A stretch of 64,000 nucleotides of DNA from Chlamydiae bacterium RIFCSPLOWO2_12_FULL_49_12 (GCA_001796315.1 MGME01000004.1:3795-67794); one strand, 5' to 3'; shown: positions 361 to 59,354, counted from the first letter of the stretch. Numbers and translations: made by a program. The notes: a model not told the origin generated them from the sequence alone.

Positions 361-524
361 TATACTGAACGCGCTTGAAAAATTGGAATTTCGGCTGCGC
401 CAATGCTTCGGGGTTCAACGATCGCATCTTGCCCCCTATTGTCATATTGGGCGACGTGCGATCGTCGAGCCTGGGGGAGCTTTCGCGTCGGCCCAAATCT
501 AATTTTTGAAGTGCTTTCGGTATA
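361..524. repeat. Palindromic element, family B, copy B1 (164 bp hairpin)
   Basis: Termini are TATACTGAACGCGCTTGAAAAATTGG ... AATTTTTGAAGTGCTTTCGGTATA, complementary arm to arm. It contains the ACGATCGCA...TGCGATCGT core shared with B2 and B3. Confidence 0.9.
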
Positions 525-530
525 GTTCCT

Positions 531-818
531 ATGAGAAAAAAGAGAAGAAAAAATATACTCTCTTCGCTGGCAGATCTCGATTTTTTAGAAGATCTCGCCC
601 CTTCTTTAGAAGAGAGTCCTTTTAAGAAGGCCTTGAAAAGATATTTTGCAGAGAGTGCTGACTTATATTCTAAGCAGCACCTCCAGCAAGAGATGCTGCT
701 GCTTAGAAAGGCGCTCAAAGAGATGGACGAGGCCAAGATGGCGCACGCCCTGATGCAGGAGACGCGAAAAAAACTGCAGAGCGCCTATCAGGAGCTGCTC
801 GAGAAGTCGAAGGCTTGA
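531..818 (+). CDS. Hypothetical small charged, coiled-coil-like protein (95 aa)
   Basis: ATG-initiated ORF with plausible helical composition. Its stop overlaps the next ORF by 4 nt (TTGA). No family recognised. Confidence 0.4.
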   Translation: MRKKRRKNILSSLADLDFLEDLAPSLEESPFKKALKRYFAESADLYSKQHLQQEMLLLRKALKEMDEAKMAHALMQETRKKLQSAYQELLEKSKA

Positions 819-835
819 ACTCTCTTAAAAAAAAG

Positions 836-1687
836 ATGACAAAACTGAAAGAAAGAAAGCTTTTTGTTGTTCTTTTTCTCTTTGCCGCGCTCATGCCGGA
901 GTTTACAGGATGGAAGAGGGAGCATTTTATGCGCGCGCGGCTCAGCGCTTTTGTCTTGCGATCTAAAGAGGTACAGGAGAGGCCTATCCGCATCAGCTCT
1001 AAGGAGCTTTATGAACGCAAGCAAAAGAGGGAGAAGATTCTTCTTTTGGACGTGAGAGAAAAAAATGAATTTGAAGAAGAGCACATTCCTGGGGCGCTTC
1101 ATTTTCCCAAGAGCCAATTTGATCGAAAAGATCCCGCATTAATGGAGATTTTGGAAAAGACGCCTAAGGATGAAATGGTAGTGACTTACTGTGGAGCGGG
1201 CCATCGGTCGGGATGGGTGGCGATCTCTTTACGCAAGATGGGCTTTAAACATGTTTGGAATCTGGATGGAATCTCCTTTTGGAAGCGGTATCGTTTTCCG
1301 CTTGTCACAGGAGTGATCGTAAAAGGCGAAGAGGAGCCCCTTCGCATAGGGACCGAAGAAGTGTGGTACATGTACAGGAGTTTTACAGACGTGCTCTTCG
1401 TCGACGTGAGAGATGTAAAAGAGTTTGAAGAAGGTCATATCGAAGGAGCAGTGAGCATTCCTCTGACAGAGTTGGAAGGGCGGCTTGCAGAAATTCCGCA
1501 AGACAAAGATAAAGTCTTCTATTGCAGCGGAACTGACGGGGAGGGTCTTTGTTCGTCCAGTCTGAGTGCGGCGCGCATTCTCATCCACAAGGGCTTTCCT
1601 TTTGGAAAAATCAAGGTGTACGAAGGGGGATTTGGAGCGTGGAAGAGCCTTGGGCTTCCAATTACACTTGGGGATCGGGGATCTTAA
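836..1687 (+). CDS. Tandem rhodanese-domain sulfurtransferase-like protein
   Basis: Two rhodanese modules: LLLDVREKNEFEEEHIPGALHFP...YCGAGHRSGW and LFVDVRDVKEFEEGHIEGAVSIP...FYCSG. Hydrophobic N-terminus. The first ATG is at 836; the ORF track starts at TTG 815. Confidence 0.8.
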   Translation: MTKLKERKLFVVLFLFAALMPEFTGWKREHFMRARLSAFVLRSKEVQERPIRISSKELYERKQKREKILLLDVREKNEFEEEHIPGALHFPKSQFDRKDPALMEILEKTPKDEMVVTYCGAGHRSGWVAISLRKMGFKHVWNLDGISFWKRYRFPLVTGVIVKGEEEPLRIGTEEVWYMYRSFTDVLFVDVRDVKEFEEGHIEGAVSIPLTELEGRLAEIPQDKDKVFYCSGTDGEGLCSSSLSAARILIHKGFPFGKIKVYEGGFGAWKSLGLPITLGDRGS

Positions 1688-3098
1688 CCTTTAAGGGGGG
1701 AAGAGAAGCAAGAAGAGGAGCGATTTCTTCGTTCAAAAAGCGCATCACTTGAGAGGGGGCGAGTCCCACAAGGGAGCTTTCGGATGCCGCTCTTTTAATC
1801 TCTTCGTCAGAGAGCGCGATTTGGGGGTCTTGGGCAAGAGCGCCCAAGAGGTCGGGGAGGATGCCGGTCTTTTTGAGTTGCTCTTTAGCTTTAAGCGCGT
1901 GGCTGCGCAAGCATTCATGGATGGTTTGGCGCTCTTTTCCTCTTTTGACAGATTCCATCAAAATGTTTTCCAGAGCAAGAAAGGGAATTTCTTCCTCCAG
2001 GTGTTTTTTGATGAAGCGCTCGGAGACGGTAAGCCCTCTTGTCAGGTGGATGAGTTCGTTGCAAAGCGCGTCTGCACACAGAAAGGACTCAGGGAGAGAG
2101 CAGCGGCGGTTTGCAGAATCGTCTAAGCTGCGCTCGAGCCATTGGGCGGCCGCCGTATAGGCGGGGTTTTCGCTCAGCGAGATGAGATAGCGCGCGAGCG
2201 AGCAGATGCGCTCGGAACGATGAGGATTTTGCTTGTAGGGCATGGCAGAGGAGCCGACCTGGCTTTTTAAAAAGGGCTCTTCCACCTCCTTTAAGTGGGC
2301 GAGCAGGCGGATGTCCGAAGCCATTTTATGAGCGGACGTTGCAAAAGAGGCGAGGGAGCTTACGAGGAGCTGATCCCACTTTCTGGAATAGGTTTGAGAG
2401 GAGAGAGAGACGCTTTTTGCAAATCCCATCGCCTTGGTGACGTAGCGGTCGAGCGCTTCGACTCTCTTTTCATCTCCCTGAAAGAGGGTAAGGAAAGAGG
2501 CCTGGCTTCCCGTCGCGCCCTTGACGCCTAAAAAGGGCAGCTCGTCGCAGCGTCGTTGCAATTCTTGAAAGTCCAGAAGGAAGTCTTGAAGCCACAAAGA
2601 GGCCCTCTTGCCGACAGTTGTGGGCTGCGCGGGCTGCAGATGGGTAAAGCTTAAACAGGGAAGAGAGGCGTGCTTTTTGGCGAAGATAAAGAGCGCGCGA
2701 AGAAGGGCGGGGAACTTTTGTAGAAGGAGCTTGAGTCCCTGTTGCATTTGGATCAGATCGGTATTGTCCGTCACAAAGGAGGAGGTCGCTCCCAGGTGGA
2801 TGATGGCTCGAGCCTTGGGACAGAGCTTGCCGTAGGCGTGGATGTGGGCCATGACGTCGTGGCGGAATTGTTTTTCATATCGGAGGCACTGTTTCAGGTT
2901 GAGCGTCTTCTTTTGGGCTTCGAGCTCTTTGATTTGCGCTTCTGTGATAGGAAGGCCGAGCCGCTTCTCTCCTTTGGCAAGGGCAATCCAAAGAGAGCGC
3001 CAGGTTGTATATTTAAAGACGGGAGAAAAGAGATAGGACATCTCTTGGCTGGCATAGCGCGTAGAAAGGGGAGTTTCATAGCGGGAAGAAAGGCTCAT
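1662..3098 (-). CDS. purB: Adenylosuccinate lyase
   Basis: RYETPLSTRYASQEMSYLFSPVFKYTTWRSLWIALAKGEKRLGLPIT resembles ADSL-type lyases, and the fumarate-lyase signature GSSAMPYKQNP is present. ATG 3098 overlaps the upstream stop as ATGA. Confidence 0.9.
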   Translation of the reverse strand: MSLSSRYETPLSTRYASQEMSYLFSPVFKYTTWRSLWIALAKGEKRLGLPITEAQIKELEAQKKTLNLKQCLRYEKQFRHDVMAHIHAYGKLCPKARAIIHLGATSSFVTDNTDLIQMQQGLKLLLQKFPALLRALFIFAKKHASLPCLSFTHLQPAQPTTVGKRASLWLQDFLLDFQELQRRCDELPFLGVKGATGSQASFLTLFQGDEKRVEALDRYVTKAMGFAKSVSLSSQTYSRKWDQLLVSSLASFATSAHKMASDIRLLAHLKEVEEPFLKSQVGSSAMPYKQNPHRSERICSLARYLISLSENPAYTAAAQWLERSLDDSANRRCSLPESFLCADALCNELIHLTRGLTVSERFIKKHLEEEIPFLALENILMESVKRGKERQTIHECLRSHALKAKEQLKKTGILPDLLGALAQDPQIALSDEEIKRAASESSLVGLAPSQVMRFLNEEIAPLLASLPPLKVKIPDPQV

Positions 3099-3844: not shown

Positions 3845-3860
3845 CTTTTGTCTCCTCACT

Positions 3861-4025
3861 TGTACACAAGTTGATCCAAGAATCGGTTTTTGGCCAGCGC
3901 AAAAACTCCCGCGGTTGGCCTATCGTAAGTGGGTCAATATTAAACTAATATGGACCCATTTACGATAGGACAACCCCGGGGCTTGGGCGCGGCCCAAAAC
4001 CGATTCTTGAGTCAACTTGCGTATA
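3861..4025. repeat. Palindromic element, family A, copy A1 (165 bp hairpin)
   Basis: TGTACACAAGTTGATCCAAGAATCGG ... CCGATTCTTGAGTCAACTTGCGTATA with apex GGGTCAATATTAAACTAATATGGACCC. It sits between parA and the pGP6-like gene and overlaps the parA 3' end. Confidence 0.92.
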
Positions 4026-4778: not shown

Positions 4779-4788
4779 CTAAAAAAAA

Positions 4789-4850
4789 TGTTATTCCTCG
4801 CGAGAATCGATCTGGCTTTGCCGCGCAGCGCATCTTGGCGCTTGTTTAGG
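4789..4850. repeat. Half-copy of palindromic family C (C1, one arm only)
   Basis: TGTTATTCCTCGCGAGAATCGATCTGGCTTTGCCGCGCAGCGCATCTTGGCGCTTGTTTAGG aligns with the right arm of C3 (59279-59342). Confidence 0.8.
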
Positions 4851-6743: not shown

Positions 6744-7005
6744 GGTAATATCACCGGTAAAATGGGCAAAGTTAGAATTGTAACGAGATCTCTTTCAAAA
6801 GACAAGGAGCAGTTCATCCCTCCTACGGCGAAAACCCGGCCCGTAAGAGCCATGTCTAAGATGGGGGAAAGCGGCAGCCCGCAGATCTTGCTGCCTGGTT
6901 TAAAGCGTCACTTTAAAATAGACGCTATTTTGACTCTTAAATTCTTGACTGTTTTAAGGTGATGAGTTAAGGTTGCCAAAAAGATCTGAAATTCAGGAGC
7001 TTAGA

Positions 7006-8220
7006 ATGTTTTCGAGAGAGTTGGCCGGAACTTTAAAAAAATATGCCAAATTTCCGGTTGTTGCCTTATTAGGGCCCAGGCAGTCAGGAAAAACAACGCT
7101 AGTTCAAAATGTTTTTCAAAAGCATAAATTTTTGAGTTTAGACAATGAGATGACACAGATATTTGCATTGGAAGATCCTGAAGGCTTTTTATCAACCAAT
7201 GAGAATGAGCATGGGATCATTTTAGATGAGTTTCAGTATGCCCCAAAGCTTACAACGTATATTAAATTGGAAGCGGACAAAAAAAAACGGCCTGGTTACT
7301 TTATTTTAACAGGATCACAAAACTTTTTGGTAAATAAAGCAATTACCGAGTCTTTAGCCGGCAGAGTTGGCATATTAAATCTTTTACCGCTGTCTAATAA
7401 AGAGCTTTTTGAAAACAAATTAACCTCTGGAGCTCTGAACGAAATGATGTTCTATGGTGGGTATCCAAGAATTTATGCCGAAAATATTTTACCTACAGAA
7501 TTTTACCCTTCTTATATTTTATCCTACATTCAGAGGGATGTCGGGCAGTTCATAACACCCAAAAATATAGCTACCTTCCGGCGATTTGTTCAATTATGTG
7601 CTGGTAGAATTGGCCAATTATGCAATGTCCATGCTTTAGCCGCTGAAACGGGCATATCTTCTCCTACTGCCAAAGAATGGCTTTCTATATTAGAAGCAAG
7701 CTATGTTTTATTTTTTTTAGAACCTCATTTTCAAAATTTTAATAAAAGATTAGTTAAAACCCCGAAGCTGTATTTTTTTGATACTGGTCTAGCGTGTTCG
7801 CTCTTAAGAATCGACTCTCCAGAAGCGTTAAGCAATTCACATTTTCAGGGAGCTGTGTTTGAGTCTTTCATCATTTCCGATCTCTATAAGCAACAGTGCA
7901 ATGAGGGGCTTCGTCCTTCATTATATTTTTGGCGTGATAGCGGAGGAGCGCATGAAGTTGATTGTATTTTAGATCAAGGCGATCAATGTTACCCTATAGA
8001 AATAAAAGCAGGGAAAAGTGTTGCAAGCGACTCCTTCCGAGGGCTTGATTATTGGAATAAACTTGCCAATGTCAAGCCACAGAACTCCTATTTGATCTAT
8101 GCAAATGATGAAAAACAATTAAGAAAGCAAGGTAAAGTTATTGGATGGAAGGAGTCAAGCTCTTTATTAAGAAGTATTATTTCAGAAAAAAACGAAAGTA
8201 TTAACCCGAGACTCAAATAG
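7006..8220 (+). CDS. AAA+ ATPase with C-terminal DUF4143-like domain (COG1373-type)
   Basis: Walker A is LLGPRQSGKTTL and Walker B is IILDEFQ. The C-terminal half ends with a restriction-endonuclease-like segment (HEVDCILDQ...YPIEIK). Visibly more AT-rich than its neighbours. The first ATG is at 7006. Confidence 0.8.
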   Translation: MFSRELAGTLKKYAKFPVVALLGPRQSGKTTLVQNVFQKHKFLSLDNEMTQIFALEDPEGFLSTNENEHGIILDEFQYAPKLTTYIKLEADKKKRPGYFILTGSQNFLVNKAITESLAGRVGILNLLPLSNKELFENKLTSGALNEMMFYGGYPRIYAENILPTEFYPSYILSYIQRDVGQFITPKNIATFRRFVQLCAGRIGQLCNVHALAAETGISSPTAKEWLSILEASYVLFFLEPHFQNFNKRLVKTPKLYFFDTGLACSLLRIDSPEALSNSHFQGAVFESFIISDLYKQQCNEGLRPSLYFWRDSGGAHEVDCILDQGDQCYPIEIKAGKSVASDSFRGLDYWNKLANVKPQNSYLIYANDEKQLRKQGKVIGWKESSSLLRSIISEKNESINPRLK

Positions 8221-8360
8221 GTGACAAGATGCGCTGTGAGGCAAAGCCAGATCGATTCTCGCGAGGAATAACATTCTTGAATACGAAGGATTCCGAGCGA
8301 GAATCGATAGGGCAAAGACGCAACAAGCAGATTGTCACCTGTTTGAGGCTCGGGTTAATA
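8199..8360. repeat. Palindromic element, family C, copy C2 (162 bp hairpin)
   Basis: TATTAACCCGAGACTCAAATAGGTGACAAGATGCGC ... GCAGATTGTCACCTGTTTGAGGCTCGGGTTAATA. It overlaps the last codons and the TAG stop of the ATPase gene. Confidence 0.9.
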
Positions 8361-8524
8361 AGATTGGATTTGATTTTGCAGTGCTCGACTTTGTTTTTTT
8401 TTGGAGACGGTGATTCACGGTGAAAGGGATTTTTCGGGACGGTTTTTTTTCGTTCTTCCTTGCAAAACTGCTTTCATCATAAGCCAAGCCGCTCTAAAAT
8501 CTGTTAGATGAACAGGAACATTTC

Positions 8525-20218: not shown

Positions 20219-20285
20219 CTCGACTTTGCACCATTTGCGATGGCGCCTCCTTGAAATTCGGCTGTCGCAAATTGACAACGTCGAG
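20219..20285. repeat. Short hairpin element (F1), related to the arms of family G/E
   Basis: CTCGACTTTGCACCATTTGCGA...TCGCAAATTGACAACGTCGAG. The internal GGCGCCTCCTTGAAATTCGGCTGTCGCAAATTG resembles the G1 right arm and F2. Confidence 0.7.
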
Positions 20286-20291
20286 ATAAAC

Positions 20292-20456
20292 TATACACAA
20301 GTTAACTCAAGAATCGGTTTTCGGCCAGCGCGAAAACTCCCGCGGTTGGCCTATCGTAAAGAGGTCAATATTAAGTTAATATGAACCTCTTTACGATAGG
20401 TCAACCCCGGGGTTTTGGCGCGGCCCAAAGCCGATTCTTGAGCTAACTTGTGTATA
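20292..20456. repeat. Palindromic element, family A, copy A2 (165 bp)
   Basis: TATACACAAGTTAACTCAAGAATCGG ... CCGATTCTTGAGCTAACTTGTGTATA with apex GAGGTCAATATTAAGTTAATATGAACCTC. Confidence 0.92.
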
Positions 20457-20507
20457 TTCTATAATGGACGAGTGATACGCAACCTGCTTAAAAAATCAGG
20501 AGCTTAA

Positions 20508-20541
20508 GCCCAAACCCGATTCTTGAGTCAACTTGTGTATA
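20508..20541. repeat. Solo terminal arm of family A (about 34 bp)
   Basis: GCCCAAACCCGATTCTTGAGTCAACTTGTGTATA equals the right terminus of family A. It contains the first in-frame start candidates of recD. Confidence 0.8.
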
Positions 20542-22151
20542 TAGCAGATGTTGATCTTCTCTTTGCAAAGAGCGTTCTCAAATATGCGCCTTTAGCCAAG
20601 AAGGGCGCAGTTGAGGCGATTTCCCGCGCCTTGGCGGGGGCCCGCCAGGGGCATCTGTGCGTGCGGGTCGAGGATGTCACTCTTTTTCCCGAAGAGGTGG
20701 TCGAGAGAGTGGATCGGACAAGCGGTCCTTTTGCAAAGCCGCTCTGTCTCTTTGGAGACCTTCTCTATTTGCAGAAGAACTGGATTTTTGAGAACCGTCT
20801 TCTCAAGGAGCTAAAGAGATTGTCGGAGCCGCTTCCTCTCTTGCGACTCTCTGATGAGGCCGAAGATCTGACGGAAGAGCAGCGGAACGCAATGCAAAGG
20901 GCGGCCGGTTCTTCTCTTTCCCTGATCACCGGAGGGCCCGGAACGGGGAAGACCTACATGGCGGCGCGCATCATCCGGGCCTTCTTGAAAGAAAATGCGA
21001 GTTTTCGCTTGGCGCTGGCTGCCCCGACGGGAAAGGCGGCCGCTGCCCTGGAAGACGCTCTTTCCGGGATGGGGGGCTCTTTTCCTTCGGCTCGTGTGGC
21101 GACGGTGCATGCCCTGCTCTTCTTAAAGCCCCATAGTGAGGAGGTTGAAAAAAAACTCCCTTACGATCTTATCCTTGTTGACGAAGCTTCCATGCTCGAC
21201 GCGCGTCTTTTCGCCGCCCTCTTGGCGTCTGTACAAGTGGGAACGCGCCTGATCTTGATGGGAGATAGCGACCAGCTCCCGCCCGTGGAGGCGGGATCTC
21301 TTTTTGCAGATCTTTTGGATCTTGGCCTCTTTCCTTGTACGCGTCTGACGAAATGGCTGCGTACAGAGAGCCGTCCTCTTTTAGAATTGGCCCGCGCCAT
21401 ACGGGATGGAGATAAAGCTGTGGCGCTTCAACTGATGCGAAAAGAGAGTCTGCAGGGTGATTTCGGATTCTCTTTTCTCTCCGTCAACCAAATCCACGAA
21501 AGAATCTGGAGCTTTGTGAAAGAGCGCATCCCTGCGCATTTTAGCCAGAGGCCGACAAAAGAGGAAATCCGCCAGGTGTTGGAGGGATTTCGCATTCTCT
21601 CCTGCCTGAGAACGGGGCCTTTGGGCGTCGATGCCCTCAATCAAAAGCTTGTCAATCAGTTTTACAGAACAGCTCCTGTGGGGAGTTATGTGGCCATCCC
21701 CGTTCTCCTCACTCGCAGTGATTCCTCACGAGATCTTTACAACGGACAAACGGGAGTTTTCATCAAACAAAAAGAGGAAAGAGACGGCGTTCTTTTGACG
21801 GAAAAAGACGAGATCGTCTTTGCTGAGCGCACCCTGCCCGCTCTTGCTGTGGCGCACTTCGAGTATGCCTGCTGTCTCTCGGTCCACAAGAGCCAGGGGA
21901 GCGAGTATGCGGAAGTGCTGCTTCTTGTGCCTAAGGGATCGGACAATTTTGGAAGAGAGGTCCTCTATACGGCAGCAACCCGCGCAAAAAACCAATTATG
22001 GGTTGTCGGGGATGAAGCAACAATAGAAAAAGCGCTAGAGCGCTCCTCTCGCCGACAATCGGGACTTATACCGAACGCACTTCAAAAATTGGAATTTCGG
22101 CTGCGCCAAAGCCTCGGGGTTCGACAATCGCATCTCGCCCCATATTTCTAA
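20523..22151 (+). CDS. recD: Exodeoxyribonuclease V alpha subunit
   Basis: Motifs: ITGGPGTGKTY, LILVDEASMLD, LILMGDSDQLPPV, SVHKSQGSEY, YTAATRAK. The start is uncertain (TTG 20523 or GTG 20535 inside the repeat arm, or later). The last 27 codons and the TAA stop are inside repeat B2. Confidence 0.88.
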   Translation: MSQLVYIADVDLLFAKSVLKYAPLAKKGAVEAISRALAGARQGHLCVRVEDVTLFPEEVVERVDRTSGPFAKPLCLFGDLLYLQKNWIFENRLLKELKRLSEPLPLLRLSDEAEDLTEEQRNAMQRAAGSSLSLITGGPGTGKTYMAARIIRAFLKENASFRLALAAPTGKAAAALEDALSGMGGSFPSARVATVHALLFLKPHSEEVEKKLPYDLILVDEASMLDARLFAALLASVQVGTRLILMGDSDQLPPVEAGSLFADLLDLGLFPCTRLTKWLRTESRPLLELARAIRDGDKAVALQLMRKESLQGDFGFSFLSVNQIHERIWSFVKERIPAHFSQRPTKEEIRQVLEGFRILSCLRTGPLGVDALNQKLVNQFYRTAPVGSYVAIPVLLTRSDSSRDLYNGQTGVFIKQKEERDGVLLTEKDEIVFAERTLPALAVAHFEYACCLSVHKSQGSEYAEVLLLVPKGSDNFGREVLYTAATRAKNQLWVVGDEATIEKALERSSRRQSGLIPNALQKLEFRLRQSLGVRQSHLAPYF

Positions 22152-22230
22152 TATTGGGCGAGATGCGATCGTCGAACCGCGAGAGCTTTCGCGTCGGCCC
22201 AAATCCAATTTTTCAAGTGCGTTCGGTATA
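22067..22230. repeat. Palindromic element, family B, copy B2 (164 bp)
   Basis: TATACCGAACGCACTTCAAAAATTGG ... CCAATTTTTCAAGTGCGTTCGGTATA. It lies between convergent recD and rpsT and overlaps both ORF ends. Confidence 0.92.
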
Positions 22231-25682: not shown

Positions 25683-25790
25683 TTAAACTCGACTTTGCAA
25701 CTTTTTGGACCCGCCTGCCTCGTCTATTTGCTCCCCCGAGAGCAAATATCTCGAGGCCTTCGGGCCCAAAAAGTTGCAAAGTCGAGTTAA
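25683..25790. repeat. Palindromic element E1 (108 bp), a short relative of family G
   Basis: TTAAACTCGACTTTGCAACTTTTTGG...CCAAAAAGTTGCAAAGTCGAGTTAA with an internal hairpin TATTTGCTC...GAGCAAATA. It lies between the two tRNA-Ala genes. Confidence 0.85.
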
Positions 25791-25804
25791 AAACGGAGTA
25801 GAAA

Positions 25805-25885: not shown

Positions 25886-26045
25886 GGCAACTTCTCATAA
25901 AGTTGAGGTAAACATTTCGTGGCGAGACCAAGGAGTCGAAAAGTTTGTGAGAAGTCCATAGCCAAAGCGCTATGGACGACGAACAAAATTTTCGAATCCG
26001 ACGGTCGCAGCCCGAAATGTTACCTCAACTTTATGAGATGTTGCC
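25886..26045. repeat. Palindromic element H1 (160 bp hairpin)
   Basis: GGCAACTTCTCATAAAGTTGAGGTAAACATTTCG ... CGAAATGTTACCTCAACTTTATGAGATGTTGCC, flanked by AAAAA on both sides, with apex CCATAGCCAAAGCGCTATGG. Confidence 0.88.
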
Positions 26046-26101
26046 AAAAAGTCAGTATTTTAGATTGAATCCTTTTTTCCAACAATATAATCTCCACTCT
26101 G

Positions 26102-30219: not shown

Positions 30220-30240
30220 CTTTACCTATTTCTTTACTCT

Positions 30241-35789: not shown

Positions 35790-35866
35790 AAAACACCTCC
35801 TAAAAGTAGACATCCCTTGTTTATAGGTCCTTGAGCCTATTTTTGTCACCTGTTTGAGGATCGATT

Positions 35867-36031
35867 GATACCGAACGCACTTGAAAAATTGGATTTGGGC
35901 CGACGCGAAAGCTCTCCTCGGTTCGACGATCGCATCTCGCCCAATATTAGAAATATGGGGCGAGATGCGATCGTCGAACCCCGAGGTTTTGGCGCAGCCG
36001 AAATTCCAAGTTTTGAAGTGCGTTCGGTATA
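35867..36031. repeat. Palindromic element, family B, copy B3 (inverted relative to B1/B2)
   Basis: GATACCGAACGCACTTGAAAAATTGG ... CCAAGTTTTGAAGTGCGTTCGGTATA. The arm order is swapped relative to B2. It sits in a divergent intergenic region. Confidence 0.9.
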
Positions 36032-36511: not shown

Positions 36512-36676
36512 TATACACAAGTTGATTCAAGAAGGGGTTTTGGGCCAGCGCGAAAGCTCCCGCGGTTGGCCTATCGTAAGTGGGTCAATATTAAACTAAT
36601 ATGGACCCATTTACTATAGGCCAACCCCGGGGCTTTGGCGCGGCCCAAAACCGATTCTTGAGTCAACTTGTGTATA
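36512..36676. repeat. Palindromic element, family A, copy A3 (165 bp)
   Basis: TATACACAAGTTGATTCAAGAAGGGG ... CCGATTCTTGAGTCAACTTGTGTATA. The apex is identical to A1. It overlaps the stop of the TagF-like gene. Confidence 0.92.
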
Positions 36677-39366: not shown

Positions 39367-40440
39367 ATGATCGATATCGAAGCCCTAAATTACTGGTTTG
39401 AAAAGGAAAAGAGAGATCTTCCTTGGCGGAAAGAACGCTCGTTTTATCGGGTATGGGTCTCTGAGGTGATGCTGCAGCAGACGCAAGCAGCTGTCGTTGT
39501 TCCCTATTTTGAGCGGTGGATGAAAAAATTTCCCAGTATCGAGGCATTAGCTTCCGCTGCAGAAGAGGAAGTGATCAAGGCTTGGGAAGGTCTTGGATAC
39601 TATGCCCGCGCCCGCCATCTCCATGCAGGGGCGAAATTCCTTCTAGGAAAGAGAGCGGACAGAGAGGTGCTTCTCAAAATTAAAGGGGTGGGCCCTTATA
39701 CTCTAAATAGCATTCGTGCGTTTGCCTTTCAGGAAAGGGCTGCGGCTGTCGATGGGAATGTCGCGCGGGTTCTCTCCCGGCTCTTTTTGATCGATGACCC
39801 CGTCGACCGCATCCGCACAAAAAAAAGACTCGAGGAACTGCTTCTTCAGCTTTTACCGCTTTCTATGCCCTCGCTAACTCTTGAGGCGTTCATCGAGCTG
39901 GGGGCTTTGGTTTGCCAAAGAATCCCTCTTTGCTTTTGCTGTCCTCTGAAACAGGGATGCAGGGGATATGCTAGCGGGCTTGCCGCCTCCCTTCCTAAAA
40001 AAAAACAGAAGACAAACTATCTTTTTAAAGAGCGCCGGGTGACGGTCATTTTTTGCGGAAAGAGAGTTCTCTTGCGGCGAAACTGGCCGAAACAGGTGAT
40101 GGCGGGTCTCTATGAATTTCCCTATTTTGAGGAAGGGGATCTCAAGGGCCATTTTGACAAGTTGGGGGTTCAAGCGGTCTTGACTCACACGCTCTCTCCC
40201 GTCAAGCAGACCTTTACGCGTTATCGCGTTCTTCTCTTTCCTTCTCTATTCCTTGCACGGCAGCCAAAAGAGAGCAAAGAGCACGAATGGAAGGAGTATG
40301 CGGCGCTTCCCTTCCTCCCTTTTTCATCGGGCCATCGCAAAATTCTACAAGCCCTTGACGCCATCAAGCCTTTCTGCTCTTTAGTCGGCTTTGTACATTT
40401 TTTGAGGCCGCCTTTCGGGAGAGCAGCTCCCTGGTTGTAA
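39367..40440 (+). CDS. mutY: A/G-specific adenine DNA glycosylase
   Basis: LPWRKERSFYRVWVSEVMLQQTQAAVVVPYFERWMKKFP, the HhH-GPD segment KGVGPYT, the Fe-S Cys cluster C..C..CPLKQGC and a NUDIX-like C-terminal domain. The last 18 codons lie in repeat G1. Confidence 0.9.
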   Translation: MIDIEALNYWFEKEKRDLPWRKERSFYRVWVSEVMLQQTQAAVVVPYFERWMKKFPSIEALASAAEEEVIKAWEGLGYYARARHLHAGAKFLLGKRADREVLLKIKGVGPYTLNSIRAFAFQERAAAVDGNVARVLSRLFLIDDPVDRIRTKKRLEELLLQLLPLSMPSLTLEAFIELGALVCQRIPLCFCCPLKQGCRGYASGLAASLPKKKQKTNYLFKERRVTVIFCGKRVLLRRNWPKQVMAGLYEFPYFEEGDLKGHFDKLGVQAVLTHTLSPVKQTFTRYRVLLFPSLFLARQPKESKEHEWKEYAALPFLPFSSGHRKILQALDAIKPFCSLVGFVHFLRPPFGRAAPWL

Positions 40441-40543
40441 TGAATTTCTCAGGAAGGGTTGATTTAACCCTTCCTTCAAAATTCATTACAACCAGGGAGC
40501 CGCCTCCTCGAAATCCGGCTATCAAAAAATGTACAAAGCCGAC
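40384..40543. repeat. Palindromic element, family G, copy G1 (160 bp hairpin)
   Basis: GTCGGCTTTGTACATTTTTTGAGGCCGCC...CCCTGGTTGTAATGAATTT / AAATTCATTACAACCAGGG...TCAAAAAATGTACAAAGCCGAC with apex GGAAGGGTTGATTTAACCCTTCC. Confidence 0.9.
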
Positions 40544-40592
40544 CTTTAGAATCTGCTATTCAAAAAGAGGCAAAGTCGAGATCATAGAGCGC

Positions 40593-42355: not shown

Positions 42356-42520
42356 TATACACAAGTTGATTCAAGAATCGGTTTTGGGCCGCGCCAAAGC
42401 CCCGGGGTTGGTCTATCGTAACTGGGTCCATATTAGTTTAATATTGACCCAGTTACGATAGGCCAACCGCGGGAGCTTTCGCGCTGGCCCAAAACCGATT
42501 CTTGAATCAACTTGTGTATA
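42356..42520. repeat. Palindromic element, family A, copy A4 (inverted orientation)
   Basis: TATACACAAGTTGATTCAAGAATCGG ... CCGATTCTTGAATCAACTTGTGTATA. The asymmetric internal arms are in the opposite order to A1-A3. Confidence 0.92.
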
Positions 42521-43000: not shown

Positions 43001-43045
43001 CTTTGTACCATTCGCGAGGAGGCGGCTGTCGCAAATTGTACAAAG
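43001..43045. repeat. Short hairpin element F2 (related to F1 and the G arm)
   Basis: CTTTGTACCATTCGCGAGGAGGCGGCTGTCGCAAATTGTACAAAG shares GGCTGTCGCAAATTG.ACAA with F1. Confidence 0.6.
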
Positions 43046-43165
43046 TCGGGGTTGCAATTTTTATCGGGGGTGATACAATGGGGTGCTTTCCCGGGATTCA
43101 GAGGGTGACCTTTGCTTGTAGAAACTTTTTCCTTTTTTAGGAGCGAGCGTTTTTGGCGTTTCGCG

Positions 43166-51248: not shown

Positions 51249-51298
51249 AATAACAAGACGGGAACATAATGAAACTCACTTGCAAAATAAGGAGTCGG

Positions 51299-52674: not shown

Positions 52675-52779
52675 TCCTTGACAATCTATTTCTTTAATCC
52701 TTAATGTGGGGTTTGTAGAATTTTAAATGATGAACCCCTTTTTTTCGGGGGTTCACGATCACCCAATTGGAGGTAAGAT

Positions 52780-53157: not shown

Positions 53158-53220
53158 ACCCCTCCGTTTAAGGAAGGGTAGGGTTTGGGGGAGGTTTGCG
53201 ATGCGCCTCCCCTTTGTTTT

Positions 53221-55599: not shown

Positions 55600-55793
55600 A
55601 AACTTTTAAATGGTTTATTAATAATTGTAAATTATTATATCAAAATTATATTTATTAGTAAAGATTAACTAAATCTCTAATAGATTGATTGTTAGTGGCT
55701 TGTTGTAGCAAGTCCGGTTTTTATTTCTGAGTGGTTGTGAGAAAGGGGAAGTAAAGCGTATTCTTGATCCGGCTCACAATATTAAGGAATTCT

Positions 55794-58391
55794 ATGGGTT
55801 GTTATCTAACCTCTTTAGCTGCAGTTCTTTTTTTAACTTTTTCACTCTTTTCAGGAGAGAGAGGCCCTTTGCTGCGCGCTAAAGAGCCCCACTGGCGGCC
55901 CACCATTGTGGAGACCTATCCCGAAGGCCAGCCCATGCGTGTTGTTTATGTTGAAGAGTTGGAAGGGGGCGAGCTAAAAGAATGGAAACAGGTCACATTC
56001 TACGCGACGGGACAGATCCAGGAGGAAGTTGATCTAGTCCGCATTTCCAAAGAGGCGCCGGCTTTTTCCCTGTGGAATAAAGAGCATGTTCCTCACGGGG
56101 CCTCTCTTGTCTACTATCCCAACGGGGCTCTGGAAAAAATTGCTTATTTTACTCAAGGATTATTGGATGGTCAATGCACCCTCTATTTTCCCGATGGCAA
56201 AGAGCGCTTGAAGTGCACTTATAAAGAAGGAAAGTTCGACGGGCCGATTGTCGCCTATTTTGAAGATGGGACAAAATCCAAAGAGGGATGTTACAAAGAA
56301 GGCAAACTGCACGGCGATCTCATCCAGTACTTCTCCAAGGGAGGCCGCTCTTCGCTTGTCACCTATCTCGAGGGGGTTCCACACGGCTCTTCGAGCGAGT
56401 GGTATGAGAATGGTGTTTTGAAAGCTTCCCGCCATTACCATAAAGGGCTTTTACATTCTGACGGGAAAAATCCTGCAGTCATTCTCTACAACGAAGAGAG
56501 AGGGATTCAGGAGGCTCAGGATTTCAAACAGGGAAAGCCCGTGGGTATCCACATCCAATACCACTCCAACGGGAAGGAGAGTTACAAGGTTTCCTACGTA
56601 GACGGACAAAAGGAGGGGAAGGAAATCCATTTTTCCACTACCGGAAAAGTGAAAGGAGAGGGTGAATATGAGCGGGGCGCGCCAAAGGGGCGGCATTGGA
56701 GAGATCATGAAAATGGAGCGCCGGCCTTAAGGGCGCTCTATGATGAAAATGGAAATTTTGCAGAGCCGCTTGTGACCTTTGGAGAAAATGGCAAAAAGCT
56801 CTCGCAATATAGACTTTCAAAAGAGGGCTCCTTTGAAGGGGAGTATCTAAGCTGGTATGAAGAAGGTCAGCCCAAGGAGGAGTTCCGCTACGAAAAGGGA
56901 GTTAAAAGCGGCGAGCAGCGAGAGTTCTATCCTTCAGGGCAGATGAAGGAGAGAGCTTTTTACGATGCAGGGATGAAAGAGGGTATTTTTGAGAGCTGGC
57001 ATGAAAATGGCAAGCTTGCAAAACAAGCGACCTATCAAAAAGGGAGCAGGGAAGGCAAGGCGGAAGAGTGGTTTTCGGACGGTCGCCTAAAATGTCAGGA
57101 ATGCTACCGGCAAGGAGAACTCGAAGAAGAGAAAAAAGAATGGTTTGAGAGCGGGGTGTTGCATTTGTCCGGATGTTTTAGCAAAGGAAAAAAGAGCAAG
57201 GAGCATTGCGAATGGAATGAGAAGGGGGAACTCGTCTTTCAGGGCAGTTATGTTGACGGTCTTCCCGACGGGTTGGTGACTCTTTGGTGGAAAGATGACA
57301 AAATCCGCGAGCGGATTCATTTTAACAAGGGAAAGAGAGAGGGGATAGACGAAGAGTTCTATCTGGACGGAAGCCCCAAGGCCCGTGCCCATTACAGAGA
57401 TGATCAGGTCGATGGTCTCTTTGAAACCTGGCATGAGGGCGGTGGTATCCATCAGATCAAGACGTTTAAACTGGGAAAGCCCGTTGGAGAACAGAAAGAG
57501 TATTTCTCGAAACAAGAGATCGGTGAACAGGGAGCGGAGGTTCTCTCCTACCATTACCACTATAATGAAGAGGGAAAGCTTCATGGGGAGCAAAGGACCT
57601 ATTATCCCAATGGGAGGATTCAAACGGTCATTACGTATGACGGAGGTTCTCTTGAGGGAAGAAAGGCTCTATGGGATGAAGAGGGGGCTCTTTTAGAAGA
57701 GGCCTTTTACGAAAAAGGACAGCTTCATGGGCGCCACTTTGAAAGAGGACAAAGGAAAGAAGAGATCATCACCCACTACAAAAACAACAAAAAAGAGGGC
57801 GTCCATGAGATCTATTATCCCGCCAATGACTACTTTGGGAGAGTACGAGCTCTTGAAGCGCGTTTCGTTTCCGACAAGCTCGAGGGAGATGTCGTGGAGA
57901 ATAATGAGGCTGGAACAATAATTGCAAAGACCCCTTACAGGAATGGAAAGAAGGAAGGGATTGCCGAGCTTTACTTTCCCAAAGGGGCGATGATGATGAA
58001 GATATCTTACAAAGAGGGGAAGAAAGAGGGGCCGGCTATCCGATTCTTTGAAAACGGGAACACCCAAAGAGAGGTCTCTTTTGTCGCCGATTTTAAGGAG
58101 GGGGATGAAAAGAGCTATTTTGAAAATGGTCAGCTTGCCTCTTTCATCCAATTTAAACAGGACAAGATCGACGGCAACTATCAGGAATGGAATGAACAGG
58201 GAATACTTCTCTTTGATTCCGAATACAAAGAAAATAAACGCCACGGAAAATTTAATAAATACGACGAGGAGGGAAAACCCTATCTTTTGCAAACCTTTGT
58301 CGATGACGAACTCGACGGCATCAAAAGGCGTTATGAAAAGGATGGATCCATCACAGAGACCCGGTACAGCAAAGGAAAAAAACTTGACTAG
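55794..58391 (+). CDS. Large MORN-variant / YwqK-like repeat protein
   Basis: Signal-like N-terminus, then more than 25 iterations of a ~23-aa unit (Y.NG.....Y..GK.(D/H)G....(Y/W)). AAGGAA lies upstream of ATG 55794. The TAG stop lies in the first bases of repeat D1. Confidence 0.8.
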   Translation: MGCYLTSLAAVLFLTFSLFSGERGPLLRAKEPHWRPTIVETYPEGQPMRVVYVEELEGGELKEWKQVTFYATGQIQEEVDLVRISKEAPAFSLWNKEHVPHGASLVYYPNGALEKIAYFTQGLLDGQCTLYFPDGKERLKCTYKEGKFDGPIVAYFEDGTKSKEGCYKEGKLHGDLIQYFSKGGRSSLVTYLEGVPHGSSSEWYENGVLKASRHYHKGLLHSDGKNPAVILYNEERGIQEAQDFKQGKPVGIHIQYHSNGKESYKVSYVDGQKEGKEIHFSTTGKVKGEGEYERGAPKGRHWRDHENGAPALRALYDENGNFAEPLVTFGENGKKLSQYRLSKEGSFEGEYLSWYEEGQPKEEFRYEKGVKSGEQREFYPSGQMKERAFYDAGMKEGIFESWHENGKLAKQATYQKGSREGKAEEWFSDGRLKCQECYRQGELEEEKKEWFESGVLHLSGCFSKGKKSKEHCEWNEKGELVFQGSYVDGLPDGLVTLWWKDDKIRERIHFNKGKREGIDEEFYLDGSPKARAHYRDDQVDGLFETWHEGGGIHQIKTFKLGKPVGEQKEYFSKQEIGEQGAEVLSYHYHYNEEGKLHGEQRTYYPNGRIQTVITYDGGSLEGRKALWDEEGALLEEAFYEKGQLHGRHFERGQRKEEIITHYKNNKKEGVHEIYYPANDYFGRVRALEARFVSDKLEGDVVENNEAGTIIAKTPYRNGKKEGIAELYFPKGAMMMKISYKEGKKEGPAIRFFENGNTQREVSFVADFKEGDEKSYFENGQLASFIQFKQDKIDGNYQEWNEQGILLFDSEYKENKRHGKFNKYDEEGKPYLLQTFVDDELDGIKRRYEKDGSITETRYSKGKKLD

Positions 58392-58553
58392 TGCTCTGTC
58401 AACATTCAAATTGCGGATGCGCTAGCGCGAAAGCTGCCGAATTTCAACGATCGCAAGTGCCTTAGTATTAGAAATACAAATGGCACGTGCGATCGTTGAA
58501 ATTCGGCGCTTTGGCGCCGCGCATCCGTAATTTCAATGTTGACAGAGCACTAG
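58388..58553. repeat. Palindromic element, family D, copy D1 (166 bp hairpin)
   Basis: CTAGTGCTCTGTCAACATTCAAATTGCGGATGCGC ... GCGCATCCGTAATTTCAATGTTGACAGAGCACTAG. It shares the ACGATCGCA...TGCGATCGT core and the GCGAAAGC/GCTTTGGC core with family B. Confidence 0.9.
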
Positions 58554-58601
58554 TTTATCTCGACTGTGCGCCGATCAAAGCTGCCTGCAAAAAATCTCTT
58601 T

Positions 58602-59183
58602 TCAACGAGTTGCGCCAACTTTTCTAAAAATATGAAGGAGCGTCATTCCATAGCGGCGGGATTCGTTGAAATGTAACTGTTTGAGTCCCAATGAATGGAA
58701 GTGTAGTTTCTGAGGAGCTCTCTCTTCTACGAAAAGCAGAGCGTCGCTTGCAAGGAGGGAGGAGCTGTCAAGGAACTTAAGAATTTCAGGAAGAAGAAGA
58801 GGGGCAAGATCGTAGGGAGGATCGACGTAGATCAAGTCAAACTTCCGCTCTTTTTTTGCCAGTCGCTTCAGTTGAACGAGAGCCTCTCCTTTCAGCACAT
58901 GGACGGCCTCTTGATCAATCTTTAAGGAGAAGAGATTTTCTTCAAGAGCGCGCAGAGCATGGAAGTCCTTGTCAATGAAGAACGCCGTGCGCGCTCCGCG
59001 GCTGAGAGCTTCAATACCCATGGCTCCGCTGCCTGCAAAAAGATCTAAGAACGAGGCATGCTCAATAAAAGGTTGGGAGAGGTCGAAAACCGCTTTGCGC
59101 ACAAGAGAGGTTGTAGGGCGGATCTCCTTGCTTTTGGGAGCCTTGAGCAGGCGTCCTTTGAATGTGCCTGCGAGAATACGCAT
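58602..59183 (-). CDS. rsmD: 16S rRNA (guanine966-N2)-methyltransferase
   Basis: MRILAGTFKGRLLKAPKSKEIRPTTSLVRKAVFD, FLDLFAGSGAMGIEALSRGA and IYVDPPY are typical of RsmD. Confidence 0.85.
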   Translation of the reverse strand: MRILAGTFKGRLLKAPKSKEIRPTTSLVRKAVFDLSQPFIEHASFLDLFAGSGAMGIEALSRGARTAFFIDKDFHALRALEENLFSLKIDQEAVHVLKGEALVQLKRLAKKERKFDLIYVDPPYDLAPLLLPEILKFLDSSSLLASDALLFVEERAPQKLHFHSLGLKQLHFNESRRYGMTLLHIFRKVGATR

Positions 59184-59199
59184 CCTTACGGTCCTTGAA

Positions 59200-59354
59200 G
59201 AGTCTGAAAACAGGCGACAATCTGCTTGTTGCGGCTTTTCCCTAGCGATTCTCGCTTCGAATCCTTCGTCTTCAAGAAGGTTATTTCTCGCGAGAATTGA
59301 TCCGGCTTTGCCGCGCAGCGCATCTTTGTCGCCTGTTTGAGGCTCGGGTTAATA
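59200..59354. repeat. Palindromic element, family C, copy C3 (left terminus truncated, inverted relative to C2)
   Basis: GAGTCTGAAAACAGGCGACAATCTGC ... GCGCATCTTTGTCGCCTGTTTGAGGCTCGGGTTAATA. The internal arms are in reverse order relative to C2. It overlaps the TAA stop of the vWA gene. Confidence 0.85.

What the first reader, a model, noticed from the sequence alone, without database searches (positions are those of the whole stretch)
361..59354. Dense population of long hairpin palindromic elements: several families, about 16 copies, no transposase in the window
I found four full copies of family A (3861, 20292, 36512, 42356) plus a solo arm at 20508. Family B has three copies (361, 22067, 35867) and family C has two plus a half copy (8199, 59200, 4789). 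Families D (58388), G (40384) and H (25886) have one copy each, and there are three shorter G-like hairpins (25683, 20219, 43001). The full copies are nearly all 160-166 bp even though termini and apices differ between families. Each folds arm-on-arm into one long hairpin. Families A, B, C and D are bounded by TA on both sides (TA-TACACAAG..., TA-TACCGAAC..., TA-TTAACCCGAG..., C-TA-GTGCTC...). A TA target-site duplication from an IS630/Tc1-mariner-type MITE would look like this, but in a palindrome it cannot be told apart from the inverted repeat itself. Together they cover roughly 2.4 kb of 64 kb. This resembles Rickettsia palindromic elements, Correia elements or REP/BIME. I am not aware of a described equivalent with this multi-family, fixed-length architecture in Chlamydiae.
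Basis: partly seen in the sequence, partly recalled or inferred. Interest (0 to 1): 0.85.

Follow-up and report, generated by a model that had tools for sequence, protein, structure and literature searches.

The report
IS630-type hairpin MITEs in a chlamydial genome
The long hairpin repeats are real; the main group are small non-coding transposons (MITEs) of the IS630/Tc1-mariner type that insert at TA. I found no earlier description of them in Chlamydiae, but the mechanism is an ordinary, well-known one.

Summary
All cited hairpins are at or within a few bases of the stated coordinates, and they fold far better than shuffled sequence (28 versus 0 windows below -70 kcal/mol). The window belongs to a groundwater Chlamydiae MAG population of about 1.4 Mb and 49% GC.

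Families A, B and D are one oriented superfamily with ends TA-TAC..T[CG]AA[GA]AAT[CT]GG. C, G/g and H are separate hairpin families.

An almost identical strain has an empty site at copy A4. It reads TTTTTGGA-TA-GCGCC, where the window has TA-[163 bp]-TA. This shows insertion polymorphism and a precise TA duplication.

Nearly all hits are true elements, mostly 163-165 bp. A viral control scan gave only six chance hits.

IS630-family insertion sequences (DDE_3 plus HTH domains), one of them in a Chlamydiales MAG, carry the same end layout. The best IS end matches a MITE end at 26 of 31 bases. One MITE sits inside such a transposase gene, and removing 162 bp restores the reading frame.

Arm pairing co-varies strongly (53 of 68 pairs) with no strand bias.

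No transposase lies in the window, and the cognate one in this genome was not found. Verdict: a new member of a known kind, of moderate interest.

The parts
361..524 (-). B1, a class-I hairpin MITE of the TATAC superfamily, 164 bp including both flanking TAs. It is intergenic, between the UDG gene and a 95-aa ORF.
   Evidence: Profile HMM E = 2e-37 on the minus strand. Folds at -87 kcal/mol.
3861..4025 (+). A1, 165 bp. The left TA is degenerate (TG). The stop codon of the ParA-like gene (3960-4778, minus strand) lies inside it.
   Evidence: E = 2e-43. Gene calls.
4784..4847 (.). Half copy of family C. It overlaps the last 19 codons of the ThrRS gene (4791-6743, minus strand).
   Evidence: 94% identical to C1 over 54 nt.
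8199..8360 (.). C1, a 162-bp hairpin with ends TA-TTAACCCGAG...CTCGGGTTAA-TA. It overlaps the 3' end of the AAA_14/DUF4143 gene. It lies inside a 1,643-bp segment that is missing in two assemblies.
   Evidence: Indel shown.
20219..20290 (.). g2, a short G-like hairpin of 72 nt, directly after the stop of the Rce1-like gene and abutting A2.
   Evidence: 92% identical to g3 over 26 nt.
20292..20456 (+). A2, 165 bp. Several metagenome contigs end inside it.
   Evidence: E = 2e-42.
20499..20541 (-). Solo terminal arm of an A-type element.
   Evidence: pair I12; profile positions 1-49, E = 3e-6.
22067..22230 (-). B2, 164 bp. It sits between two convergent genes, and the stop codons of both the PIF1-like helicase and ribosomal protein S20 lie inside it.
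   Evidence: E = 2e-47. Gene calls.
25683..25791 (.). g1, a 109-nt hairpin between the two tRNA-Ala genes.
   Evidence: -68 kcal/mol.
25886..26050 (.). H, a 165-nt hairpin flanked by AAAAA on both sides, next to tRNA-Ala(ggc). It is the only copy in the window. A shorter H-like hairpin lies about 4.7 kb beyond the window end.
   Evidence: Contigs L013 and L014 end at its start.
35839..35863 (.). Fragment of a C-type right arm, next to B3.
35867..36031 (+). B3, 165 bp. The left TA is degenerate (GA). It lies between two divergently transcribed genes. Six contigs end inside it.
   Evidence: E = 2e-44.
36512..36676 (+). A3, 165 bp, between convergent genes. It overlaps the stop of a Glyphos_transf gene by 14 nt.
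   Evidence: E = 7e-46.
40384..40545 (.). G, a 162-bp hairpin inserted at the MutY/glycosyltransferase gene junction. Both called ORFs run into it.
   Evidence: Comparison with the relative L097, where the two genes overlap by 4 nt. A G-type arm in L060 is 93% identical over 44 nt.
42356..42520 (-). A4, a 163-bp element plus a duplicated TA. It is polymorphic: absent from contig L142, which has a single TA at the site.
   Evidence: Perfect 35-nt terminal arms (pair I5). Folds at -135 kcal/mol.
43001..43080 (.). g3, a short G-like hairpin between divergent genes.
58389..58552 (+). D, 164 bp including the TAs. It has divergent termini (TA-GTGCTCTG...) but the class-I interior. It lies between convergent genes.
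   Evidence: E = 4e-26.
59200..59354 (.). C2, a family C copy with a degenerate left end and an intact right end (...CTCGGGTTAA-TA). It lies between two minus-strand genes.
   Evidence: 88% identical to C1 over 147 nt.

Best explanation

**Structure.** Each is about 163 bp of non-coding DNA. The outer 30 bp or so on each side form terminal inverted repeats (TAC[AC]N9-10 T[CG]AA[GA]AAT[CT]GG[TA]TTT). The rest is an extended palindrome, so the whole element can fold arm on arm.

**Proposed mechanism.**
1. An IS630-family DDE transposase (HTH_23/HTH_33 DNA-binding domains plus a DDE_3 catalytic domain), encoded elsewhere, binds both ends.
2. It cuts the element out or copies it.
3. It inserts the element at a TA dinucleotide, which becomes duplicated.

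**Where copies persist.** Surviving copies sit where insertion does little harm. These are mostly gene 3' ends between convergent genes, gene junctions and divergent promoter regions. In these places they often replace the last codons of a gene.

**Shown:**
- the elements are multi-copy;
- they occur outside the window;
- one site has a precise TA versus TA-element-TA polymorphism;
- their ends resemble those of IS630-family insertion sequences;
- elements and such insertion sequences occur on the same contigs;
- the two arms co-vary.

**Inferred:**
- mobilisation in trans by such a transposase;
- that this genome has, or recently had, a cognate transposase;
- that palindromy is maintained at the DNA level.

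Families C, G/g and H are further hairpin repeats. They are probably also mobile, but their transposition chemistry is not established here.
For: 1. **Empty site.** Contig L142 (sample ERZ4903070) is 99.5-99.8% identical to the window over 21 kb. It reads GTGACTTTTTGGA-TA-GCGCCTTCTTCG exactly where the window has TA-TACACAAG...(163 bp)...CTTGTGTA-TA. Nine other assemblies have the site filled.
2. **Second case of a TA-duplicating insertion.** In L034 a 164-bp superfamily member interrupts an IS630-family transposase gene. Of the removal lengths tested, 162 bp (body plus one TA) restores the frame; 160, 161, 163 and 164 do not. It also restores the conserved C-terminal motif, RRVRDKF against the family's RRITDNF.
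3. **Shared TA.** Two tandem elements in L095 share a single TA.
4. **Autonomous relatives.**
   - The L096 ORF has DDE_3 (E = 9e-36), HTH_33 and HTH_23.
   - 6,205 homologues were found, one named 'IS630 family transposase [Chlamydiales bacterium]'.
   - IS ends read TA-TAC[CA]C.TAATT..TGAAG[AG][AG]T[TG]GA (L139, both ends; L096; L161-L166).
   - The L034 IS end matches MITE ends at 26 of 31 bases, and window B ends at 21-23 of 31. Other TATAC sites in the window match at only 10-18 of 31.
5. **Spread.** 71 unique elements with both ends were recovered from the fetched loci and the window, and their lengths peak at 162-165 bp. The same pattern in 2.9 million viral contigs gave 6 hits, none of them an element.
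6. **Same ends, different interiors.** A Parachlamydiales MAG has the A-type ends with a different interior.
7. **Copies outside the window.** B-type copies lie at loci not in the window.
8. **Arm co-variation.** 94.8% of cells are paired, against 76.1% in shuffles (0 of 500 reach the observed value) and at most 47% with slid partners. 53 of 68 pairs show compensatory changes.
9. **Assembly breaks.** Many contigs end inside elements.
Against: - No transposase lies in the 64 kb or in the 10 kb beyond it. I could not search the rest of this genome.
- The closest IS end matches the window's A ends at only 19-20 of 31 bases. The actual partner of A and B is therefore not identified.
- Only one of about 16 sites is polymorphic among the 10-23 assemblies examined per region. 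Most copies are therefore old or fixed.
- A single empty site cannot separate insertion from precise excision.
- The interior keeps a conserved asymmetry across families and organisms. A purely parasitic deletion derivative does not predict that.
- C, G and H have no empty-site or partner evidence. A hairpin element nested in L040 duplicates 7 bp, not TA, so not every hairpin family here need be IS630-type.
Confidence: 0.85

Rival explanations
1. The hairpins are host-functional RNA structures, such as bidirectional terminators, mRNA stabilisers or small RNAs, conserved by selection. Under this reading they are not primarily mobile DNA.
For: Many sit at gene 3' ends between convergent genes (A3, A4, B2, D; gene calls). 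The hairpin is kept by many compensatory changes. The interior is conserved across families.
Against: - The presence/absence polymorphism with a TA duplication is a transposition signature.
- Elements also occur between divergent genes, inside an IS gene and at operon junctions.
- G-T/T-G cells (37) equal A-C/C-A cells (35), so neither strand is favoured as RNA.
- Intrinsic orientation is unrelated to the upstream gene's direction, 8 same versus 9 opposite.
- No T-run follows the stems (direct reading of the flanking sequence printed).
- No Rfam family matches.

Secondary use of individual copies by the host is not excluded.
Confidence: 0.06
2. They are REP/REPIN-type elements moved by a RAYT (Y1, IS200-like) transposase, or hairpin-recognising IS200/IS605-type elements acting on single-stranded DNA.
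For: They are hairpin-forming repeats in intergenic DNA. A Y1 transposase flanked by 108-nt inverted repeats occurs on one metagenome contig next to an IS630 copy (L096).
Against: - REPs are 20-40 bp with GTAG or CGTC heads (PMC3733652 abstract). These elements are about 163 bp with TAC... ends.
- Y1 transposases insert without a target duplication (established knowledge of IS200/IS605). A TA duplication is seen here.
- The inverted repeats around the L096 Y1 gene are unrelated in sequence to the elements.
- No Y1 gene lies in the window.
Confidence: 0.02
3. The palindromes arise and spread by a replication-based foldback or template-switch process, or by recombination, and no transposase is involved. 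Under this reading the TA flanks are simply part of the palindrome.
For: The whole element is palindromic and its arms co-evolve even within one family (A2 versus A3). L147 shows a junction that could be recombination between copies. Mini-palindromes made only of the two ends exist.
Against: - The empty site keeps exactly one TA with flanks otherwise identical.
- Near-identical copies lie at many unlinked loci and in many organisms with conserved ends.
- The ends match those of IS630-family insertion sequences.

Foldback processes may still explain how the interior stays palindromic.
Confidence: 0.04

Closest known systems
RUP (repeat unit of pneumococcus), the MITE attributed to IS630-Spn1 in Streptococcus pneumoniae
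   Same: Both are small non-coding elements with terminal inverted repeats similar to those of an IS630-family IS. Both insert at TA. Both are found inserted into IS elements and so inactivate transposase genes (PMC2229807; compare L034).
   Different: RUP is 107 bp with a 9-bp contiguous terminal repeat and occurs in a Firmicute. These elements are 163-165 bp with terminal repeats of about 30 bp and a fully palindromic interior. No homology to RUP was tested. The partner IS in the same genome is known for RUP but not here.
Nezha MITEs of Anabaena/Nostoc
   Same: Size is about 130-170 bp. They have terminal inverted repeats shared with an intact IS, stable predicted hairpins, and empty/filled sites in close relatives. 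The matching IS (ISNpu3) occurs only in another species (PMC3184786). The situation here is the same.
   Different: They occur in a different phylum and have different end sequences. The review text read does not state the family of ISNpu3 or the size of the duplication; I recall it as IS630-like.
ERIC/IRU (127 bp) and Correia/NEMIS (about 104-157 bp) elements
   Same: Both are bacterial MITEs with 5'-TA-3' at their ends and a target duplication, whose transcripts fold into long stem-loops. They are often co-transcribed with neighbouring genes or fused to them (PMC2229807, Table 1 and text).
   Different: Their ends and hosts are different, and no transposase has been assigned to ERIC. ERIC acts on mRNA stability in an orientation-dependent way. 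No orientation bias was seen here.
YPAL/RU-2 of Yersinia (about 168 bp)
   Same: Almost the same length, palindromic, with empty/filled sites in close relatives (PMC2229807).
   Different: YPAL has no TA at its termini, its inverted repeats are internal, and its target duplications vary from 3 to 26 bp. The elements here give a strict TA duplication.
Rickettsia palindromic elements (RPE)
   Same: Both are palindromic repeats of 105-146 bp in an obligate intracellular bacterium that can become part of coding regions (PMC2229807). Here several stop codons and ORF ends lie inside elements.
   Different: RPEs are known for in-frame insertion within genes, and their duplication and transposase are unknown. 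Here the elements sit at gene ends and between genes. A TA duplication and IS630-like ends are seen.

Membership tests
Bacterial MITE | Small (under about 400 bp) and without a transposase gene | tested here: met
   Elements are 162-166 bp. Element-internal reading frames are short and differ between families.
Bacterial MITE | Terminal inverted repeats | tested here: met
   The outer helix of 30 pairs is 95.2% paired across 25 elements. A4 has perfect 35-nt arms.
Bacterial MITE | Target-site duplication, shown by a filled and an empty site | tested here: met
   A4: one TA in L142 against TA-element-TA in the window. L034: among the removal lengths tested (160-164 bp), only 162 bp restores the frame. 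Not tested for B, C, D, G or H.
Bacterial MITE | Multiple dispersed copies | tested here: met
   Nine superfamily loci lie in the window. B copies lie at other loci. More than 120 metagenome stretches were hit. A genome-wide count for this organism could not be made.
IS630/Tc1-mariner-derived MITE | Insertion at TA with duplication of TA | tested here: met
   Tandem elements share one TA.
IS630/Tc1-mariner-derived MITE | Ends similar to those of an IS630-family insertion sequence | tested here: met
   IS ends have the layout TATAC-N10-TGAAGRRTTG. The best IS-to-MITE match is 26 of 31. Window A and B ends match at 19-23 of 31. Other TATAC sites in the window match at 10-18 of 31.
IS630/Tc1-mariner-derived MITE | A cognate transposase in the same genome or lineage | tested here: inconclusive
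   None lies in the 64-kb window or the adjacent 10 kb. An IS630-family IS is present in another Chlamydiales MAG (L139).
IS630/Tc1-mariner-derived MITE | Mobilisation by the transposase in trans | not testable with these tools
   Needs a transposition or binding assay.
REP/BIME/REPIN | 20-40 bp units with a GTAG or CGTC head, and an associated RAYT | tested here: not met
   Elements are about 163 bp with TAC ends. No Y1 transposase lies in the window. A TA duplication is present.
Rfam-catalogued structured RNA | Match at a family's gathering score | tested here: not met
   Only tRNAs reach gathering score. On B3 and A3 there are only sub-threshold matches to microRNA precursors and a few other families, 16-40 bits against cut-offs of 40-109.
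YPAL/RU-2 | No terminal TA, internal inverted repeats, variable 3-26 bp duplication | tested here: not met
   Terminal TA and a strict TA duplication. YPAL features taken from PMC2229807.

The most novel reading that the evidence does not exclude
The class-I elements (A, B, D and relatives in many environmental contigs) may be more than deletion derivatives of an IS. They could be an old, widely distributed hairpin-MITE lineage in which the interior itself is under constraint.

The features that suggest this are:
- a fixed length of about 163 bp;
- a conserved GCGAAAGC / GCTTTGGC mismatch-and-bulge asymmetry;
- a CGATCG motif;
- an ATATTA apex.

One possible reason is that a cruciform or foldback form brings the two TA junctions together for a transposase dimer. 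Another is that the host has come to use the structure. Either would make the lineage a distinct structural class of bacterial MITE. The near-identical length of the unrelated C, G and H hairpins would then reflect the same constraint.
Probability: 0.2. Interest if true: 0.6.

Novelty: new member of a known kind. Interest (0 to 1): 0.4.

Why it matters
**For Chlamydiae.** These bacteria are usually seen as poor in repeats. The published description of these MAGs does not mention palindromic repeats; a term search of that paper found no 'palindrom' or 'transposase' (PMC5826181). Here a 1.4-Mb environmental chlamydial genome carries hairpin transposons over about 3.7% of a 64-kb stretch. At least one site is polymorphic in the population. 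The same superfamily turns up in very many metagenome contigs.

**Practical consequences.**
- The elements break metagenome assemblies. Contigs end inside them.
- They lengthen or alter called ORFs, for example MutY, a glycosyltransferase, ParA, S20 and ThrRS.
- They may mediate rearrangements.
- They give ready-made strain markers.

**Conceptual value.** Conceptually, this adds a lineage to a known mechanism; it does not reveal a new one.

Tried and rejected
1. **Genome-collection scan.** My one scan of genome contigs used a narrow A-type pattern and found only one MAG, palsa_1448.
2. **Empty sites among metagenome loci.** I joined the flanks of 101 elements and searched all fetched loci for uninterrupted matches. 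I found none; the hits were neighbouring repeats.
3. **Paired termini 0.6-3 kb apart as candidate full-length IS copies.** L094, L030, L046, L075, L085 and L111 turned out to be separate MITEs with ordinary genes between them.
4. **The terminus at L096:159.** I first took it for the IS end. It is a MITE arm next to the IS, and the true IS end is at 275.
5. **The IS5-type element polymorphic in L009.** I checked it as a possible partner, but its ends are unrelated.
6. **P0006 and P0015.** I fetched them hoping they came from the Rifle population. They come from marine and other samples, and were useful only for IS ends.
7. **Rfam at a permissive threshold and the plasmid collection.** Nothing meaningful.
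8. **Orientation bias and G-U versus A-C asymmetry as signs of an RNA function.** Neither was found.
9. **C, G and H as distant members of the superfamily.** The profile HMM does not detect them.
10. **An empty site for C1.** The only variant is a 1.64-kb indel that removes a whole gene together with C1, so it says nothing about a duplication.
11. **Density beyond the window.** The next 10 kb has no full element, only a short H-like hairpin. A genome-wide count by extrapolation is therefore unreliable.

Full report
**1. The observation**

An inverted-repeat search with arms of at least 30 nt, at most 250 nt apart, returns 17 pairs. Folding each cited interval gives one long hairpin. Full copies fold at -73 to -135 kcal/mol. 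Self-BLAST shows that the repeated intervals coincide with the same elements.

In a sliding 170-nt scan, 28 windows of the real sequence fold below -70 kcal/mol. None does in a locally shuffled copy, whose minimum is -69. Windows at or below -68 kcal/mol include every full-length listed element, plus seven marginal clusters that may be chance. The elements add up to about 2.3 kb.

Gene calls from public assemblies of the same DNA cover window 1-63934. They show no transposase domain.

**2. The source organism**

Proteins of the window are encoded identically on contigs from many groundwater metagenomes and on NCBI MAGs GCA_001796185.1 (MGLT01) and GCA_001796095.1 (MGLP01). Pillonel et al. 2018 list these as Chlamydiae bacterium RIFCSPHIGHO2_02_FULL_49_29 and GWC2_50_10, at 1.2-1.4 Mb and 49% GC. 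A term search of that paper found no mention of palindromes or transposases (PMC5826181). The window's GC content is 46-51%.

**3. Relations between the families**

A, B and D align over their whole length. They share an asymmetric interior: GCGCGAAAGCT, then CGATCG, then an ATATTA apex, then TTTGGCGC.

A profile HMM built from 25 such elements finds the four A copies, three B copies, D and the solo arm. E-values are 1e-26 to 1e-47 for full copies. The two orientations score 35-45 bits apart for A and B copies, so the elements have an intrinsic polarity. The profile does not find C, G, H or the short g hairpins.

The window therefore holds one superfamily at nine loci, plus at least three unrelated hairpin groups.

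**4. Occurrence outside the window**

- *Genome collection.* A narrow A-end pattern found only a Parachlamydiales MAG from permafrost, palsa_1448. Its elements have the same ends with a different interior. Mini-palindromes made of the two ends alone also occur there.
Nearly every hit is a real element with a matching opposite end.
- *Lengths.* Among 71 unique elements with both ends, taken from the fetched loci and the window, lengths are 162-165 bp (50 elements) or 175 bp (13 elements).
- *Control.* The same pattern in 2.9 million viral contigs gave six hits. All lie in ordinary sequence and none matches the profile.
- *Same or related population.* Four metagenome loci carry B-type copies, two of them (one locus, two samples) 98.8% identical to B3, with flanks that are not in the window (L059/L086, L123, L137). 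L086 holds a further class-I family.
- *Chlamydial relative.* L097 carries a 164-bp member and shares MutY-glycosyltransferase synteny with the window.
- *Assembly breaks.* Many contigs of the window's own population end inside A2, A3, B2, B3, H or g1.

**5. Mobility and the target duplication**

Public assemblies of the same population are 99.5-99.9% identical to the window and mostly carry the same elements at the same sites. There is one clean exception.

Contig L142 (sample ERZ4903070) lacks A4. It reads GTGACTTTTTGGA-TA-GCGCCTTCTTCG. The window reads GTGACTTTTTGGA-TA-[TACACAAG ... 163 bp ... CTTGTGTA]-TA-GCGCCTTCTTCG. The TA is therefore a duplicated target and not part of the element.

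A second, independent case is in L034. A 164-bp superfamily member interrupts an IS630-family transposase gene. Of the removal lengths tested, 162 bp (body plus one TA) restores the frame; 160, 161, 163 and 164 do not. It also brings the family's conserved C-terminal motif back in register (RRVRDKF against RRITDNF). Two tandem elements in L095 share a single TA.

**6. The autonomous partner**

Two metagenome contigs that carry elements also carry a transposase gene.
- The L096 ORF (344 aa) has DDE_3 (E = 9e-36), HTH_33 and HTH_23, the IS630-family architecture.
- It has 6,205 homologues at E <= 1e-20. Some are named IS630 family transposase from a Chlamydiales bacterium, Babeliales, Verrucomicrobia and Flavitalea.
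- The Chlamydiales copy (L139, GCA_028229395.1) has the ends TA-TACACGTAATTCCTGAAGGATTGAAAA and, reverse-complemented, TA-TACTCAATTAAGTTGAAGAGTTGAAAA. The stop codon lies in the right end.
- Further copies (L096, L161-L166) show the same layout, TATAC, ten bases, then TGAAG[AG][AG]T[TG]G.

This is the layout of the MITE ends. The L034 IS end matches MITE ends at 26 of 31 positions. Window B ends match at 21-23 of 31 and A ends at 19-20 of 31. Other TATAC sites in the window match at 10-18 of 31.

The transposase family and end type therefore fit. The specific partner of A and B was not found, and I could not search the rest of this genome.

**7. The palindrome**

In an alignment of 25 class-I elements from the window and 17 other loci, the consensus hairpin has 68 pairs.
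- 94.8% of cells form standard pairs, against 76.1% in shuffles. None of 500 shuffles reaches the observed value. With partners slid by 1-3 columns the figure is at most 47%.
- 53 pairs show changes on both sides.
- G-T plus T-G cells number 37 and A-C plus C-A cells 35.
- Intrinsic orientation does not follow the direction of the upstream gene, 8 same against 9 opposite.

There is no sign of selection on one RNA strand. Pairing looks like a property of the DNA. Co-variation in the outer 30 pairs is expected for two ends that bind the same protein. Co-variation in the interior is not required by a simple MITE model.

Not all superfamily members are full hairpins. The 175-bp group and a 165-bp group have good terminal repeats and a less palindromic interior.

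**8. Context in the window**

- *Between convergent genes, with stop codons inside the element:* A1 (ParA), B2 (PIF1-like helicase and S20), A3, A4 and D.
- *Between divergent genes:* B3 and g3.
- *At or overlapping gene 3' ends:* C1, the C half copy and C2. The last 19 codons of ThrRS are C-derived.
- *At a gene junction:* G lies exactly between MutY and a glycosyltransferase. In the relative L097 these two genes overlap by 4 nt. Homology ends at MutY residue 330 of 357 and starts at glycosyltransferase residue 52 of 419. Both called ORFs are therefore extended into the hairpin.

**9. Comparison with known elements**

Reviews of bacterial MITEs describe the same kind of element: under 200 bp, with terminal inverted repeats, TA at the termini, a target duplication and long stem-loops.

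RUP of S. pneumoniae is attributed to IS630-Spn1 on the same two grounds used here, end similarity and TA targets. RUP also inserts into IS elements (PMC2229807). Nezha has empty/filled sites, and its partner IS occurs only in another species (PMC3184786).

Neither review lists a chlamydial element. Six full-text searches found no paper describing one. The library does not cover subscription journals, and I could not query ISfinder or Dfam.

**10. Verdict**

These are IS630-type MITEs, a new member of a known kind.

Still open:
- the partner transposase in this genome;
- the genome-wide copy number, since density is uneven and the next 10 kb has no full copy;
- the chemistry of families C, G and H;
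- the reason for the conserved asymmetric interior and the shared length of about 163 bp.

Noticed in passing
window about 30225-30229; L009:5781-7400: A 1.6-kb IS5-type insertion sequence (DDE_Tnp_1 plus DUF772 ORFs, ends AATTGCAAAA...) is present in the ERZ4903070 strain. It is absent from the window and from the other assemblies that span this site. This is the same sample that lacks A4.
   Followed up: partly
window 6811-8453; L153, L157: A 1,643-bp segment is replaced by 17 nt (CATGTCGAGATTTTGAC) in two assemblies. The segment holds a 66-aa ORF, an AAA_14/DUF4143 ATPase gene and the C1 hairpin. This is a gene-cassette polymorphism.
   Followed up: partly
L147:2200-2480 (corresponds to window 42356-42520): One assembly joins a different genomic region to the right half of A4, through an A-type left arm with a deletion at the apex. 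This is either recombination between A copies or a chimeric assembly at the repeat.
   Followed up: no
window 39367-41699: The called MutY (357 aa) and glycosyltransferase (419 aa) ORFs both run into the G hairpin. Judged against a relative, the real glycosyltransferase start is Met52 (about 40593), and the last 27 residues of MutY are not homologous to the relative, about 19 of them encoded by the hairpin.
   Followed up: yes
L096:1386-2128: An IS200-like Y1 transposase gene (PF01797) lies immediately after the IS630 transposase stop codon. It is flanked by 108-nt inverted repeats that are 89% complementary.
   Followed up: partly
L040:1492-1820: A different 157-bp hairpin element (ends TGGAGTTTGGAC...) is nested inside a TATAC-type element. 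It carries a 7-bp duplication, AAAGATC, so it belongs to a second transposon class of almost the same length. L114 has a similar element.
   Followed up: partly
L041, L046, L112, L127 (48-49 bp); L001:3612-3650: Mini-palindromes consist only of the two terminal repeats joined head to head. They may be internal-deletion derivatives of the 163-bp elements.
   Followed up: no
window 44411-45252 and 45280-46124; 28707-28934 and 29627-29851: Two tandem paralogous family-2 glycosyltransferase genes, and a pair of partly repeated genes of unknown function. Neither is related to the hairpins.
   Followed up: no
L161, L163, L164: Short marine contigs of the IS630-clade element read right end, one TA, then left end. 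The cause could be tandem copies, a circular form, or wrap-around assembly of a repeat.
   Followed up: no
L174:5221-5285 (about 4.7 kb beyond the window end): A roughly 64-nt hairpin whose arms resemble the ends of H (CTCATAAAACTGAGGTAACC). Contig L179 begins inside it.
   Followed up: no
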